Shown here piece after piece: positions 1,050 through 8,575 of a stretch of 15,665 nt of DNA. Under the pieces are notes generated by a model. That model searched no databases. It was not told the DNA's origin and saw nothing but the letters and a program-made list of their open reading frames with translations. A program made the position numbers and the translations under genes. Source of the DNA: a virus (Duplodnaviria; Heunggongvirae; Uroviricota; Caudoviricetes); IMG/VR virus record IMGVR_UViG_3300031998_000029, positions 1 to 15,665 of that record, one strand, 5' to 3'. The stretch's first letter is position 1; each line of letters opens with the position of its first letter.

Positions 1050-1071
1050 AAGCCGGGAGCAATCCCGGCTT
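1050..1071 (+). other. GC-rich hairpin immediately 5' of twister ribozyme 1
   Basis: AAGCCGGGA-GCAA-TCCCGGCTT, a 9-bp stem with no U-tract. Confidence 0.75.
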
Positions 1072-1123
1072 CCTTAATGCAGCCAATGACGGTCACAAGC
1101 CCGTATAAATGCAGAGTGAGGAA
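1070..1123 (+). ncRNA. Twister ribozyme (type P1), copy 1; predicted cleavage U1075|A1076
   Basis: P1 TTCCT/AGGAA; UAA; P2 TGCA/TGCA; P4 ACGG/CCGT; loop TCACAAGC; pseudoknots CAC/GTG and GC/GC; conserved GA after P2. This matches the known twister core (UAA-P2-GC...CGG-U-NNN-AAGC-CCG...P2'-GA-NNN-P1'). Confidence 0.9.
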
Positions 1124-5338: not shown

Positions 5339-5674
5339 ATGTCACAAACTTTGATAATCGAAAACAACATTAAACATATATGTTGTGATGTTGCTTTTGA
5401 CGACGGAGAGTTTTCAATAATATTTCCTTGCACTATAGATGAATCTTTCCTTAAAGGAGAGTATGAGAAAACAGTGTTAGGAACGATATACGGCTGTATA
5501 TATTTCTACACATTCAAACAGGTACAGACATTACGAGATCTCATGCATTGCGTAGGTATTGAGTATGGGGTAGGTAAGACGTTTTTCGACGGCGCATTCT
5601 TTAACGAACATGAAATTGACGCGCCATATCCTGTTCTTGACAGCCGTACGCATATTTTGACGACCGTGCGGTGA
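5339..5674 (+). CDS. Hypothetical protein, 111 aa
   Basis: SD AGGTAGGTG; operon context. Confidence 0.7.
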   Translation: MSQTLIIENNIKHICCDVAFDDGEFSIIFPCTIDESFLKGEYEKTVLGTIYGCIYFYTFKQVQTLRDLMHCVGIEYGVGKTFFDGAFFNEHEIDAPYPVLDSRTHILTTVR

Positions 5675-6085: not shown

Positions 6086-6508
6086 ATGTTTTCAAAACAG
6101 TTTATAGATGAGGCGAAAGCTTTATATCCCACATGGCATGCTCTTCATGAAGCAATAGCAAATGGTTCTGGAATCATAGGCAGGTATCTTGATGATAGCA
6201 CGCCGACGGCGATTGATTATCGCGAAGTTCTCGCCGCAGCTTCCCTTGAGGAACTCAAAAGAAAAGCCATAATAATCAAACGGAAGAACGATTTATATAA
6301 TGCGTATAGATCCGGTTCTTGCTACCAGACAGAAAGCGATAAGCGTAAAGGTGTAGGTTGTCCGCGTCTATACGCACAAATGACGGACGACGAAGCCGCG
6401 CTCGATGCTTTCCATTGTTATGGAGTTTATCATATTCCCGACTGCAAAAGGTTTGATACCGGTGAATGCTGGGAACTCTTTGATGCTCTCGGCTTAAAGA
6501 TGAAATAG
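6086..6508 (+). CDS. Hypothetical protein, 140 aa
   Basis: SD AGGAGG; Cys/His-containing C-terminal part. Confidence 0.75.
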   Translation: MFSKQFIDEAKALYPTWHALHEAIANGSGIIGRYLDDSTPTAIDYREVLAAASLEELKRKAIIIKRKNDLYNAYRSGSCYQTESDKRKGVGCPRLYAQMTDDEAALDAFHCYGVYHIPDCKRFDTGECWELFDALGLKMK

Positions 6509-6521
6509 GCAGCGAACATTC

Positions 6522-6642
6522 GCCCCGATAGCTCAATTGGTTAGAGCACGTAAAATAAGGTTTGTTTATGAAAATCTTTGACAGCAAAAAGATAATTGCT
6601 CTTGTAAAGCCGAGGTTGCAGGTTCGAGTCCTGCTCGGGGCA
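6522..6642 (+). tRNA. tRNA-Thr(TGT) interrupted by a 47-nt insertion in the anticodon stem (intron-like element or pseudo-tRNA); no encoded CCA
   Basis: Acceptor GCCCCGA/TCGGGGC; D arm GCTC/GAGC; T arm GCAGG-TTCGAGT-CCTGC. Removing 6551-6597 restores a perfect anticodon stem CGGCT/AGCCG with loop CT-TGT-AA. Confidence 0.75.
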
Positions 6643-6649
6643 TTTTTAT

Positions 6650-6713
6650 CCGGCGGTAGCTTAACAGGTAAAGCGTGGAGCGATGGTTGCGGGTTCGAGA
6701 CCCGCCCGCCGGC
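6650..6713 (+). ncRNA. tRNA-like element lacking the anticodon arm
   Basis: Acceptor CCGGCGG/CCGCCGG; TA; D arm GCTT/AAGC; T arm GCGGG-TTCGAGA-CCCGC. Only 13 nt (6676-6688) lie between position 26 and the T stem, where a normal tRNA has about 22. Confidence 0.7.
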
Positions 6714-6726
6714 TAGTTTTCATGAG

Positions 6727-6973
6727 GAGATGCCAACAGCAAAAAAGAACACAAAATATTCTGATTTTGAACAAACGGCATCTCGTGTATTTCAAAAGGC
6801 ACATACAGCAACAAAAAAACGTTATCAAAAAGGTTGATTTTGATGAACTCGGTTTATCTTGCCTTCCTGATAAACCGAGTGAAATGTGCCTTGTAAATAA
6901 CTAACCCCTGATAAAGACGCCGAAGAAAAACAAGACTGCAAATCTTTTTAAGTTCAAAAAACTTCGGCGTCTT
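6727..6973 (+). ncRNA. Array of three long-stem hairpins, each carrying an ACWGCAA motif, in the leader of the DUF2828-type gene
   Basis: GAGATGCC/GGCATCTC (6727-6734/6777-6784) with ACAGCAA at 6736. AAGGCACAT/ATGTGCCTT (6796-6804/6884-6892) with ACAGCAA at 6805 and an inner 12-bp hairpin (6847-6880). AAGACGCCGAAG/CTTCGGCGTCTT (6914-6925/6962-6973) with ACTGCAA at 6935. Confidence 0.65.
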
Positions 6974-7006
6974 GTGGGGTTAAAAAACAGAAAGGGGTTA
7001 ATTAAA

Positions 7007-8575
7007 ATGGGTTTTTATGACGCGATTAACGACGAGCTTCTCGAAGGCTCAAACGTATCCGTGACTGAAAACGGAGCGATAGGCTACCGAACTACCGGCA
7101 AAAATCTGCTCGATTTAAACTTTGCGGTTGCTTCTTTGCGTTTCGCATCCGACGAGGATATTATTGCCAGATTCAAGAAAGCCTTTTTTGAGGATAAAAT
7201 GCTTGCCATGAAGTGGCTGTTCTTCGCTCGTGATATCAGGGGCGGTCTCGGAGAGCGTCGGCTTTTCCGCACAGCCATGCGGTTTATAGCAGACTACGAT
7301 CCCAGCATTGTTATAAACCTGATTCCCCTTATCGCAGAATACGGCAGGTTTGATGACCTGTGGGAATTTCTTGAATATCCGGAGATATATCCGGAGATCA
7401 TCGACTACATTCGCGCCCAGCTTCTCTCAGACATAGAAGACCGACGGGACGGCAATTCGATTTCTCTTCTTGCCAAATGGCTGCCGTCCGTAAACGCATC
7501 TTCCGCAAGAAGTAAGAAGTATTCAAGGATGATTTGCAACGGGCTCGGAACGAAAGTGTCTACGTATCGCAAGACTCTCAGCAGCCTCAGACGATATCTC
7601 AATGTCGTTGAACAGAAGATGTCTGCCGGAGAATGGAGAAATATAAATTACGAAGCCGTCCCGTCCCGTGCCAACCTTATCTATAAGGATGCATTCCTTC
7701 GCCACGACGAAAAGAGGCGCCGGAAATTTTTGTCAGCGCTTGAAAGGGGCGAAGCGAAAATCAACTCAGCCGTGCTTTATCCGCACGATATAGTCCATAA
7801 ATATATGGTTGATAATTTTTACCGTATGGATTTACGTTATCGCGACGAAGCCATAGAAGCAATGTGGAAATCGCTTCCCGATATGGTTAAAGGCGGCGGA
7901 AATACTATCGTAGTCGCTGACGGTTCCGGGTCAATGTGTTGCAAAGTGGGAGACGGAAACAGCTCACTAACCGCACTGGAAGTAGCCGACGCATTGGCGA
8001 TCTATTTTGCAGAACATTCGTCCGGTGAATTTCGGAATAAATATATCACATTCTCCGAGCACCCGCAGCTCGTTGATTTTTCAAAAGCATCGAGCTTGCA
8101 TGACAAGCTCAACATTGCATTGTCACACAACGAAGTCGCAAACACTAACATAGAGGCAGTCTTCGACCTGATTCTGAAAACCGCAGTCAGCAATCATATG
8201 CGTCAGGATGAAATTCCCGCAAACATTCTGATCATATCCGATATGGAATTCGATGGGTGCGCGTGCACTAATGACGGATACTGCTGGGGCGGCTTGCCTC
8301 AGAATTTATTCAAGACAATCGAGCAGAAATATATAGCAGCGGGGTACAAGCTCCCCAGGCTCGTATTCTGGAACGTCAATTCCCGCACCAACACAATTCC
8401 CGTACGCGAAAATGATATGGGCGTCGCGCTTGTCAGCGGTTTTTCTGTCAATATCTGCAAAATGATCATGAGCGGCAAGACCGACCCGTACGAGTGCCTT
8501 TTGGAAACCATCAACTCCGAGAGATATCAGCCTGTTGAGGATGTGTTAAAAGAAAATAAGAGGGTTTTCATATGA
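7007..8575 (+). CDS. DUF2828-family protein (TROVE/Ro60-related helical region plus C-terminal vWA domain), 522 aa
   Basis: Recognised motifs TENGA..Y.TTG..LLDL, RDIRGGLGER, YGRFDDL, AKWLPS, LYPHDIV, the vWA MIDAS-like VVADGSGSM, ISDMEFD, LVFWNV and LVSGFS. ATG 7007 follows SD AAAGGGG. Confidence 0.85.
   Translation: MGFYDAINDELLEGSNVSVTENGAIGYRTTGKNLLDLNFAVASLRFASDEDIIARFKKAFFEDKMLAMKWLFFARDIRGGLGERRLFRTAMRFIADYDPSIVINLIPLIAEYGRFDDLWEFLEYPEIYPEIIDYIRAQLLSDIEDRRDGNSISLLAKWLPSVNASSARSKKYSRMICNGLGTKVSTYRKTLSSLRRYLNVVEQKMSAGEWRNINYEAVPSRANLIYKDAFLRHDEKRRRKFLSALERGEAKINSAVLYPHDIVHKYMVDNFYRMDLRYRDEAIEAMWKSLPDMVKGGGNTIVVADGSGSMCCKVGDGNSSLTALEVADALAIYFAEHSSGEFRNKYITFSEHPQLVDFSKASSLHDKLNIALSHNEVANTNIEAVFDLILKTAVSNHMRQDEIPANILIISDMEFDGCACTNDGYCWGGLPQNLFKTIEQKYIAAGYKLPRLVFWNVNSRTNTIPVRENDMGVALVSGFSVNICKMIMSGKTDPYECLLETINSERYQPVEDVLKENKRVFI

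What the first reader, a model, noticed from the sequence alone, without database searches (positions are those of the whole stretch)
6522..8575. ACWGCAA hairpin array plus modified tRNAs forming the leader of a Ro/TROVE-related (DUF2828) gene
Four ACWGCAA motifs (6581, 6736, 6805, 6935) occur within about 360 nt. Each lies in an unpaired segment enclosed by a stem of different sequence (6, 8, 9 and 12 bp). A conserved motif in non-conserved stems suggests a repeated protein-binding RNA element. The array ends 33 nt before the start codon. Ro60/Rsr proteins are established binders of Y RNAs, and bacterial YrlA RNAs contain tRNA-like domains and lie beside rsr. This block could therefore be a Y-RNA-like partner set or an autoregulatory leader for the DUF2828 protein, possibly linked to tRNA damage or repair. 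I do not recognise it as a named RNA family.
Basis: partly seen in the sequence, partly recalled or inferred. Interest (0 to 1): 0.85.

Follow-up and report, generated by a model that had tools for sequence, protein, structure and literature searches.

The report
Phage Ro60-like gene with ACAGCAA-tagged RNAs
A large gut or rumen phage carries a gene for a Ro60-shaped RNA-binding protein, and just upstream of it sits a tight row of small RNA genes (one built into a threonine tRNA) that share one tag, a short helix followed by ACAGCAA; the same pairing recurs in hundreds of very different phages and probably marks an undescribed Y-RNA-like partner family of a counter-defence protein.

Summary
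Four ACWGCAA motifs lie at the stated coordinates, far more tightly clustered than the genome background allows.

The block 6522-6982 is non-coding. It holds:
- a tRNA-Thr(UGU)-shaped gene with a 47-nt insert (6551-6597) after position 28;
- a tRNA-like element with no anticodon arm;
- two stand-alone RNAs closed by 8- and 9-bp stems;
- one atypical long hairpin.

The shared tag is a helix strand, 1-2 nt, then ACAGCAA. Stem sequences differ, but pairing is kept through compensatory changes.

The downstream protein (DUF2828+DUF7788) has no sequence match to Ro60, yet its model matches Ro60 structures over both domains (Z 14.6-9.8).

The tag accompanies homologs in 33 related metagenomic phages and in all 9 cultured phages I inspected (Mycobacterium, Felix O1-like, Listeria, Campylobacter, Staphylococcus, Bacillus, Sinorhizobium, Aeromonas). 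In 5 of 5 whole genomes mapped, the tightest motif cluster abuts the gene. Rfam has no family for it.

A preprint shows that the Bas63 ortholog (gp130) counters the Ppl defence and guesses at nearby Y RNAs. I found two unannotated tagged RNAs there.

This scan has reported the same pairing before on other DNA, in at least 26 genomes.

The parts
6522..6642 (+). tRNA-Thr(UGU)-shaped RNA gene with intact acceptor, D and T arms. The anticodon stem is interrupted after position 28.
   Evidence: Rfam tRNA model scores 49.9 bits, with 60 nt in place of 13. ARAGORN does not call it. Removing 47 nt restores a 5-bp anticodon stem and the loop CUUGUAA. The arms and the 3-bp inner anticodon stem covary across 11 orthologs.
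6551..6597 (+). 47-nt insert carrying the tag: helix 6557-6563 with 6572-6578, then UG, then ACAGCAA at 6581-6587.
   Evidence: An equivalent insert of 41-54 nt lies in the long tRNA-like genes of the related loci.
6650..6713 (+). 64-nt tRNA-like element with acceptor, D and T arms but no anticodon arm and no tag.
   Evidence: Rfam tRNA model scores 43.9 bits, with 6 nt in place of 15. It is not closely similar to the anticodon-less tRNA-Leu mimics elsewhere in this genome.
6727..6784 (+). Stand-alone tagged RNA A: 8-bp closing stem (6727-6734 with 6777-6784), then A, then ACAGCAA at 6736-6742.
   Evidence: It is a row of alignment A2, where all 7 stem pairs show compensatory changes.
6796..6892 (+). 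Stand-alone tagged RNA B: 9-bp closing stem (6796-6804 with 6884-6892), ACAGCAA at 6805-6811, and two inner hairpins.
   Evidence: It holds the only genome-wide match to RCRCNNACAGCAA.
6902..6982 (+). Long hairpin C: 7-bp outer stem plus 12-bp inner stem beginning AAGACGC, with ACTGCAA at 6935-6941, 9 nt from the stem. It is an atypical or decayed copy, sitting where relatives have a short canonical unit just before the ribosome-binding site.
7007..8575 (+). Gene for a 522-aa Ro60-like protein: a helical DUF2828 domain plus a DUF7788 vWA domain with an invariant MIDAS DxSxS motif. Ribosome-binding site GAAAGGGG at 6990-6997.
   Evidence: Pfam. Invariant D305, S307 and S309. Model at pLDDT 74. 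Ro60 chains are the top matches over both domains.

Best explanation
Positions 6522-6982 are an array of small non-coding RNA genes. They are not a conventional mRNA leader and not a broken tRNA cluster.

Four of the five elements carry one recognition tag, here called the handle. It consists of a helix of variable sequence whose strand runs, after 1-2 nt, into single-stranded ACAGCAA.
- In two stand-alone RNAs, the partner strand lies downstream and closes the RNA.
- In the tRNA-Thr-shaped RNA, the handle is a capped hairpin grafted into the 5' strand of the anticodon stem.
- The last copy is degenerate.

The most likely reading is that these RNAs are the cognate partners (Y-RNA analogues) of the Ro60-shaped DUF2828/DUF7788 protein encoded immediately downstream.
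- Inferred: they are cut out of a polycistronic transcript, helped by the tRNA-like ends.
- Inferred: the protein binds the handle.
- Inferred: the variable body (a whole tRNA shape, an anticodon-arm mimic or other hairpins) engages a second factor that recognises tRNA, as a Y RNA tethers Ro60 to an effector.
- By analogy with the Bas63 ortholog, the particle probably serves counter-defence.

What is shown here: the fold of the protein, the conservation and covariation of the handle, and its co-location with the gene across phage families. What is inferred: binding, processing and function.
For: Protein.
- Pfam finds DUF2828 and DUF7788.
- The MIDAS residues are invariant in 15 homologs.
- By Foldseek, the 13 matches with E of 1e-4 or better are all Ro60/TROVE chains.
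- By VIA-align, the top ten entries are Ro60, with Z 14.6-9.8 over 371-410 residues spanning both domains. The rows below them match the vWA domain only.

RNA.
- In 33 loci with 47-64% identical homologs, long tRNA-model hits and ACAGCAA copies fill the 1.5 kb upstream on the gene strand.
- Stand-alone units have 7-12-bp closing stems ending 1-2 nt before the motif.
- On 24 such units, all 7 stem pairs change on both sides, and 0 of 500 shuffles reach the observed score.

Specificity.
- RCRCNNACAGCAA occurs once in this genome, 200 nt before the gene.
- It occurs 6-10 times in each of five relatives, against 0-1 for the reversed control.

Distant phages.
- 711 cultured phage records encode a homolog.
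- In 8 of 8 sampled from eight host genera, ACAGCAA occurs 24 times on the gene strand and twice on the other strand within 4 kb. Most copies lie in unannotated gaps and have 7-9-bp closing stems.
- In 5 of 5 whole genomes, the tightest same-strand cluster abuts the gene.
- T5, T4 and Bxz1 lack both the gene and any such cluster.

Architecture parallels Y RNAs.
- In phage Clautastrophe and in Bas63, one unit encloses a permuted T-arm/D-arm domain like YrlA.

Not needed for decoding.
- An intact tRNA with the same anticodon exists elsewhere in 4 of 4 genomes.
- Orthologous tRNA bodies carry different anticodons: GUU, UGU, GCU, UUU.

Not protein-coding.
- The ORFs overlapping the array have no protein-level conservation in the 33 related loci.

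Literature.
- Bas63 gp130 is Ro60-like and counters the Ppl defence (10.1101/2024.10.10.617714).
- bas63_0130 is the homolog.
Against:
- Co-location is confounded with tRNA arrays. In relatives, a second cluster of handles lies in the main tRNA array, tens of kb from the gene. Another factor that acts on tRNA-array transcripts could therefore be the reader of the tag.
- The units used for the covariation count were preselected for 7 bp or more. Random positions in these structured regions also find stems fairly often: 29% against 55% for 7 bp or more.
- The structure model is of moderate quality (pLDDT 74, TM about 0.5).
- The canonical Ro60-binding motif of YrlA is absent, and the window's YrlA match is a 27-bit artefact of two adjacent tRNA-likes.
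- Exact excision of the insert would give a perfect tRNA-Thr, which is what an intron would look like.
Confidence: 0.6

Rival explanations
1. The handle copies are cis-acting operators in the 5' leader. The protein binds its own mRNA near the ribosome-binding site and represses translation. Under this reading the RNAs are not separate molecules.
For: In most relatives, a short canonical unit ends 3-60 nt before the Shine-Dalgarno sequence of the gene: L030, L028, L023, L013, L024, L014. KVP40 has a copy 48 nt upstream. In the window, hairpin C ends 24 nt before the ATG, and its 5' strand AACCCC could also pair with the GGGGUU of the ribosome-binding site. No sigma-70-like promoter or terminator above chance separates the array from the gene.
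Against: In Clautastrophe, VpaE1, Bas63 and S-CoN_Ph5, the units lie downstream of the gene. In relatives, further units sit in a distant tRNA array. Units embedded in complete tRNA shapes, with 7-13-nt spacing, look like processed RNA genes. The window's leader-proximal copy is the least canonical one. This reading can coexist with the best explanation.
Confidence: 0.14
2. The 47-nt insert is a protein-dependent tRNA intron, and the handle is its splicing or processing signal. After excision and ligation the phage gains a working tRNA-Thr(UGU). The stand-alone copies are processing sites.
For: Exact removal of 6551-6597 restores a 5-bp anticodon stem and a canonical 7-nt loop with U33 and A37. 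The same holds for Asn, Lys, Leu and Gly versions in relatives. The phage encodes an RNA-ligase-family protein at 30392-30907. Listeria phage LMSP-25 has an annotated tRNA-splicing ligase 1.3 kb from its homolog.
Against: The same handle occurs in many units with no exons around it. The insert is too short for a group I intron, sits at 28/29 rather than in the anticodon loop, and I saw no bulge-helix-bulge in the sequence (established knowledge of tRNA introns). There is no RtcB in this genome. An intact tRNA with the same anticodon is present in 4 of 4 genomes. The orthologous body carries changing anticodons, which fits poorly with stable aminoacylation identity (inference).
Confidence: 0.12
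3. The tag is read by some other factor, such as a host or phage ribonuclease, a modification enzyme or a ligase acting on tRNA-array transcripts. On this view its nearness to the DUF2828 gene only reflects that this gene habitually sits beside tRNA arrays.
For: Handles also occur in the main tRNA array, far from the gene, in G001, G003 and G004, next to tmRNA and ROOL RNA. In many phages the gene borders a tRNA array.
Against: In Clautastrophe, CP30A, S-CoN_Ph5 and phiN3, the units abut the gene where there is no array beside it, only zero to four single tRNA genes within 4 kb. T5, T4 and Bxz1, which have tRNA arrays (my own knowledge) but no homolog, show no cluster. Every genome in which I saw handles also encodes the protein.
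Confidence: 0.1
4. Chance motif clustering in an A-rich, structured intergenic region with no shared function.
For: The window-wide count alone is not significant.
Against: Local clustering, the extended consensus, strand bias, covariation and recurrence across eight host genera all argue against chance.
Confidence: 0.02

Closest known systems
Ro60 (Rsr)/Y-RNA ribonucleoproteins, including bacterial and phage YrlA RNAs (Rfam RF02553; Chen et al. 2014, PMC4201824) and Thermus phage phiLo Ro60 with Yrl1/Yrl2 (PMC12135203; PDB 9KOP, 9L5Y)
   Same: - A ring-plus-vWA protein with the partner RNA genes on the same strand within a few hundred bases.
- RNAs closed by a 5'/3' stem with a short conserved single-stranded motif next to its 5' strand.
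- RNA bodies that mimic tRNA. In Clautastrophe and Bas63, one unit even has the permuted T-arm/D-arm layout of YrlA.
- phiLo Ro60 is the best structural match (Z 14.6).
   Different: - The protein belongs to Pfam DUF2828/DUF7788, not TROVE, and has no sequence-level match to any solved Ro60.
- The RNA motif is ACAGCAA, not GNCGAAN0-1G or CGAA.
- Rfam YrlA scores only 27 bits here, an artefact, and 36-39 bits in other phages, against a threshold of 69.
- Many bodies are ordinary-order tRNAs or bare anticodon-arm mimics.
Bas63 (Escherichia phage JohannRWettstein) gp130, reported as Ro60-like and as a counter to the Ppl defence (PhageMaP preprint, 10.1101/2024.10.10.617714)
   Same: It belongs to the same protein family: bas63_0130 is 34% identical over 93% of the window protein. 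The gene sits directly beside a tRNA array, and the authors already suspected Y RNAs among the neighbouring genes.
   Different: The preprint names no RNA and no motif, and suggests that annotated tRNA genes might be the Y RNAs. I find two unannotated ACAGCAA units in gaps of that array, at L050 4879-4936 and 5421-5546. Whether the window's phage meets a Ppl-type defence is unknown.
Class I RNAs of dictyostelid social amoebae (Rfam RF01414; Kjellin et al. 2021, PMC7919456)
   Same: These are small RNAs of about 60 nt closed by a short 5'/3' stem of variable, covarying sequence. An unpaired, conserved 11-nt motif follows the 5' strand directly. Its near-invariant letters at positions 6, 9, 10 and 11 (C, C, A, A) fit ACAGCAA placed at positions 5-11.
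   Different: RF01414 does not match this window even at E up to 10 on 511 bases. The near-invariant T at motif position 3 is not kept here. The known binding protein of Class I RNAs is an RRM protein. Homology is untested; this is a resemblance only.
Intron-containing tRNA genes (group I introns in bacterial and phage tRNAs; archaeal bulge-helix-bulge introns)
   Same: A tRNA gene interrupted near the anticodon. Precise excision would restore a canonical anticodon arm. GenBank already annotates one such gene, in Aeromonas phage PX29, as a two-piece tRNA-Leu.
   Different: The insert is 41-54 nt, far too short for a self-splicing intron. It usually lies between positions 28 and 29. I saw no bulge-helix-bulge in the sequence. 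The conserved module also occurs outside any tRNA.

Membership tests
Ro60/TROVE protein family | Two-domain architecture: an alpha-helical HEAT-repeat ring followed by a vWA domain with a MIDAS motif | tested here: met
   In the model, helices span residues 33-288 and an alpha/beta domain spans 300-515. Ro60 chains align over residues 31-511 with Z 14.6-9.8 and Foldseek E 3e-7 to 1e-4. D305, S307, S309, T380 and D412 are invariant.
Ro60/TROVE protein family | Sequence membership (Pfam TROVE, or a detectable match to solved Ro60 sequences) | tested here: not met
   Pfam gives only DUF7788, DUF2828 and a weak VWA_2 hit. A profile of 15 homologs finds no Ro60 among PDB sequences at E up to 10.
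Ro60/TROVE protein family | Binds Y RNA through a conserved stem and threads single-stranded RNA through the ring | not testable with these tools
   No RNA-protein tool was available. The claim is inferred only from gene-RNA co-location.
YrlA Y RNA (Rfam RF02553) | Covariance-model score at or above the gathering threshold (69 bits) | tested here: not met
   The match at 6610-6682 scores 27 bits and covers model positions 23-89 only. It is made of the T arm of one tRNA-like element and the D arm of the next.
YrlA Y RNA (Rfam RF02553) | GNCGAAN0-1G motif beside the 5' strand of the closing stem | tested here: not met
   ACAGCAA occupies that place in units A and B. GCCGAAG at 6919 in hairpin C is uninformative, because the pattern occurs 27 times in the window.
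YrlA Y RNA (Rfam RF02553) | Gene within about 4 kb of the Ro60-type gene and on the same strand | tested here: met
   All five elements lie 25-485 nt upstream of the ATG at 7007, on the + strand.
Functional tRNA-Thr | Continuous anticodon arm, recognised by a tRNA finder | tested here: not met
   ARAGORN does not call 6522-6642. The arm is restored only after deleting 47 nt. Whether that deletion happens in RNA could not be tested.
Dictyostelid Class I RNA (Rfam RF01414) | Match to the family covariance model | tested here: not met
   No RF01414 match in 6500-7010 at E up to 10.
Dictyostelid Class I RNA (Rfam RF01414) | Short terminal stem followed directly by a conserved unpaired motif with C, C, A, A at positions 6, 9, 10, 11 | tested here: met
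   Units A and B show this, compared with the description in PMC7919456. This is a resemblance in layout, not evidence of common descent.

The most novel reading that the evidence does not exclude
The helix-plus-ACAGCAA RNAs and the DUF2828 Ro60-like protein form a widespread phage counter-defence particle. Its tRNA-shaped or anticodon-arm-shaped bodies would act as decoys or tethers for host defence enzymes that recognise tRNA, for example systems of the Ppl type countered by Bas63 gp130. The same recognition tag may be shared with the unexplained Class I RNAs of social amoebae. That would point to an old RNA-protein recognition pair spanning viruses and eukaryotes.
Probability: 0.2. Interest if true: 0.85.

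Novelty: new variant of a known kind. Interest (0 to 1): 0.68.

Why it matters
Homologs of this protein are encoded by at least 711 cultured phage records, including Felix O1-like, Listeria, Staphylococcus, Campylobacter and Mycobacterium phages. They are also represented by thousands of metagenomic protein clusters.

One ortholog is already linked by genetics to escape from a bacterial defence system, with no mechanism known. A defined, short and easily mutated RNA tag beside the gene turns that problem into direct experiments: which RNAs the protein binds, and what the tRNA-like bodies recruit or block.

The finding also explains a class of "tRNAs with introns" and "tRNA-OTHER" annotations in phage genomes. 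And it would extend the Ro60/Y-RNA principle to a second protein family with a different RNA code.

Tried and rejected
- An exhaustive ARAGORN scan of all deletions of the long tRNA-likes was far too permissive to be useful. I replaced it with a strict anticodon-arm test. The first version had an offset error; the corrected one is.
- Rfam at permissive thresholds gave no family for the units, only chance-level microRNA or snoRNA rows. RF01414 was not matched.
- The YrlA hit in the window is an artefact of two neighbouring tRNA-likes.
- The sigma-70 promoter and terminator scan was at chance level.
- GNCGAAG in hairpin C is uninformative: 27 copies in the window.
- blastn of the region against cultured phages found no match.
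- A full-text search for ACAGCAA returned only primer lists. A search for DUF2828 returned only plant and tardigrade papers. A search for phage tRNA introns returned nothing relevant.
- The supplements of Chen et al. 2014 are not held. I could not check whether any of their 22 phages carries a DUF2828-type protein.
- RtcB, T4 Rnl1-type ligase and AAA_33 kinase families gave no match in this genome. The Rnl1 search also rang in no control genome, so it says little.
- The extra ACAGCAA cluster at 119.4 kb in Listeria phage LMSP-25 lies inside a protein-coding gene and is not a handle cluster.
- The protein-atlas search returned only DUF2828 clusters and gave no lead to eukaryotic relatives.
- The tRNA-like element 6650-6713 is not a close copy of the anticodon-less tRNA-Leu mimics noted elsewhere in this genome.
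Full report
**What is in the window**

The window is the first 15.7 kb of a 114,910-nt virus record, 97% complete by CheckV. The gene at 7007-8575 (+) matches Pfam DUF2828 and DUF7788, with a weak VWA_2 hit.

Upstream, Rfam's tRNA model hits two elements. One is 6522-6642 (49.9 bits), with 60 nt where the anticodon stem-loop should be. The other is 6650-6713 (43.9 bits), with only 6 nt there. ARAGORN calls neither.

ACWGCAA lies at 6581, 6736, 6805 and 6935, exactly as reported. The whole-window count is unremarkable. But the genome has only 19 + strand copies, so four within 361 nt is very unlikely: about 7e-4 by my arithmetic. The extended form RCRCNNACAGCAA occurs once in 115 kb, at 6799. 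The stretch 6715-7010 folds far better than shuffles, with z = -6.2, into three large hairpins. The ORFs that overlap the array (6562-6837 and 6683-6904) have no protein-level relatives in 33 related loci.

**Anatomy of the elements**

- *tRNA-Thr-shaped RNA.* Deleting 47 nt (6551-6597) from 6522-6642 restores a perfect 5-bp anticodon stem and the loop CUUGUAA. The result is a tRNA-Thr(UGU) interrupted between positions 28 and 29. The insert holds a 7-bp helix (6557-6563 with 6572-6578), then UG, then ACAGCAA.
- *Units A and B.* Unit A (6727-6784) has an 8-bp closing stem and unit B (6796-6892) a 9-bp one. In both, the 5' strand runs straight into ACAGCAA.
- *Hairpin C.* Hairpin C (6902-6982) has a stem that begins with the family's usual AAGACGC. 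However, its motif is ACTGCAA and sits 9 nt away, so this copy is atypical.
- *Spacing.* The elements are separated by 7-13 nt, and the last one ends 24 nt before the ATG.

It competes with the helix that both the fold and the family pattern favour.

**Relatives**

Thirty-three IMG/VR loci encode homologs of 47-64% identity. Nearly all have, upstream and on the same strand, arrays of 111-125-nt tRNA-model hits, each with ACAGCAA about 60 nt in, plus further copies between genes.

Removing 41-54 nt from these long elements restores canonical anticodon arms for Asn(GUU), Lys(UUU), Leu(GAG), Gly(GCC or UCC) and others. Orthologous bodies carry different anticodons. The cloverleaf arms and the inner 3 bp of the anticodon stem covary.

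The stand-alone copies share a consensus: AAGRCRC, 1-2 nt, then ACAGCAA. Their partner strand lies 40-70 nt downstream. Their interiors often look like anticodon stem-loops or T arms.

On an alignment of 24 units, all seven stem pairs show changes on both sides, and no shuffle reaches the observed covariation. Two caveats apply. I had selected units with at least 7 bp. And random positions in these structured regions also find stems fairly often.

The common feature is therefore a helix whose strand exits into single-stranded ACAGCAA. The other strand may come from upstream, giving a capped hairpin as inside tRNAs. Or it may come from downstream, giving a terminal stem as in stand-alone RNAs.

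**The protein**

A profile of 15 homologs finds no solved relative by sequence. The AlphaFold model (pLDDT 74, pTM 0.68) is matched first and only by Ro60 structures. Foldseek E values run from 3e-7 to 1e-4 for 13 chains. VIA-align gives Z 14.6 for phage phiLo Ro60 and 12.3 for Deinococcus Rsr, down to 9.8, over about 371-410 residues spanning both domains. The following rows align the vWA domain alone. The MIDAS residues are invariant. The family is very large: 6,873 clusters at 50% identity, at E of 0.001 or better.

**Does the tag travel with the protein outside this phage lineage?**

- tblastn finds homologs in 711 cultured phage records.
- I fetched eight from eight host genera. ACAGCAA occurs 24 times on the gene strand and twice on the other. 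Nearly all copies are in unannotated gaps within a few hundred bases of the gene, with 7-9-bp closing stems 1-2 nt before the motif.
- In Aeromonas phage PX29, the copy lies inside a 117-nt "two-piece tRNA-Leu".
- Whole-genome maps of five of these phages show that the tightest same-strand cluster abuts the gene in every case. One other cluster is inside a coding gene.
- T5, T4 and Bxz1 have no homolog and no such cluster. KVP40, chosen as a control, turned out to have a homolog, with a copy 48 nt upstream of it.
- In five relatives of the window's phage, the strict tag occurs 6-10 times against 0-1 for the reversed control. It falls in two clusters, one next to the gene and one in the main tRNA array, beside tmRNA and ROOL RNA. 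That second cluster is the main reason to keep open the rival that another factor reads the tag.

**Relation to known RNAs**

- *YrlA in the window.* The window's YrlA hit (27 bits) is made of the T arm of one tRNA-like element and the D arm of the next.
- *YrlA elsewhere.* In mycobacteriophage Clautastrophe, one of three units just after the "Ro-like RNA binding protein" gene encloses a permuted T-arm/acceptor/D-arm domain. That domain matches YrlA end to end at 39 bits, below the threshold. ACAGCAA sits where YrlA has its GNCGAA motif. Bas63 has the same kind of unit.
- *Published Y RNAs.* Chen et al. 2014 describe YrlA RNAs next to TROVE proteins in 22 phages and give GNCGAAN0-1G as the candidate Ro site. 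The phiLo study uses a CGAA motif. Neither mentions ACAGCAA.
- *Class I RNAs.* The layout also resembles dictyostelid Class I RNAs: a terminal stem and then an 11-nt motif with C, C, A, A at positions 6, 9, 10 and 11. Rfam's model does not match here.

**Function**

- The PhageMaP preprint reports that Bas63 gp130 resembles Ro60 and counters the Ppl defence. The authors suggest that some neighbouring tRNA genes may be Y RNAs.
- bas63_0130 is the homolog of the window's protein.
- Two ACAGCAA units lie in unannotated gaps of its tRNA array.
- LeBron's Ro-like gp53 is toxic when overexpressed, and that phage also has an RNA ligase and a polynucleotide kinase.
- The window's phage has no RtcB but has an RNA-ligase-family gene at 30392-30907.

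**Spliced tRNA or stable RNA?**

In favour of splicing: exact excision gives a perfect tRNA.

Against splicing:
- The same module occurs without exons.
- The insert is short, sits at an unusual place, and I saw no bulge-helix-bulge in the sequence.
- An intact tRNA-Thr(UGU) exists at 28196-28270 in this genome. Intact tRNA-Asn(GUU) genes exist beside the tagged Asn-shaped genes in three relatives.

**Verdict**

The interpretation as a set of Y-RNA-like partners of a Ro60-like protein is the best-supported reading, at about 0.6. An autoregulatory role for the copy nearest the gene is possible in addition.

Relative to the literature, this is a new variant of a known kind. The protein's Ro60 likeness and a counter-defence phenotype are in print, but I found neither the RNA tag nor its RNA family described. 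This scan has already reported the same pairing on other DNA, in at least 26 genomes. I used those notes as leads and re-tested the central claims here.

Noticed in passing
window 1071-1122, 1153-1225, 1481-1532: There are two type-P1 twister ribozyme matches (60.4 and 54.8 bits, just under the 67.2-bit threshold, with P1 shortened). Between them lies a RAGATH-16 RNA above its threshold (68.8 bits). All are on the + strand among small genes.
   Followed up: no
window 6650-6713: A 64-nt tRNA-like element has acceptor, D and T arms but no anticodon arm and no ACAGCAA tag, wedged between tagged RNAs. No equivalent appeared among the Rfam hits in 20 related loci. It is not a close copy of the anticodon-less tRNA-Leu mimics elsewhere in this genome.
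   Followed up: partly
L036 5720-6001, L034 5359-5762 and L036 4117-4537; L039 2455-3006: Relatives of this phage carry a ROOL RNA and a tmRNA inside their main tRNA array, next to tagged units. Listeria phage LMSP-25 has a ROOL-like match (88.5 bits, under the 99.1-bit threshold) between its tRNA array and its DUF2828 gene.
   Followed up: no
L035 2801-2849: A 6A RNA (Rfam RF02925, 47.3 bits, above threshold) lies immediately 5' of a tagged unit (ACAGCAA at about 2860) in a related phage's tRNA array.
   Followed up: no
L044 7904-8020 (Aeromonas phage PX29): GenBank annotates a 117-nt tRNA-Leu joined from two pieces. Its 'intron' holds a 7-bp hairpin, 2 nt and ACAGCAA, so this is the same tag embedded in a tRNA of a T4-like phage.
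   Followed up: partly
L050 5388-5662 (Bas63): Two small minus-strand ORFs (bas63_0137 and bas63_0138) are annotated over a stretch that on the + strand forms a 126-nt tagged, YrlA-like RNA (5421-5546). The ORFs are probably spurious.
   Followed up: partly
genome 30392-30907 (outside the window): An RNA-ligase-family (PF09414) gene in a 367-aa frame lies about 2 kb from the intact tRNA-Pro and the two intact tRNA-Thr genes at 27758-28435.
   Followed up: no
NC_005083.2 168289-169692 (Vibrio phage KVP40): KVP40 was picked as a negative control, but it encodes a 37%-identical DUF2828 homolog with ACAGCAA 48 nt upstream of its start.
   Followed up: partly
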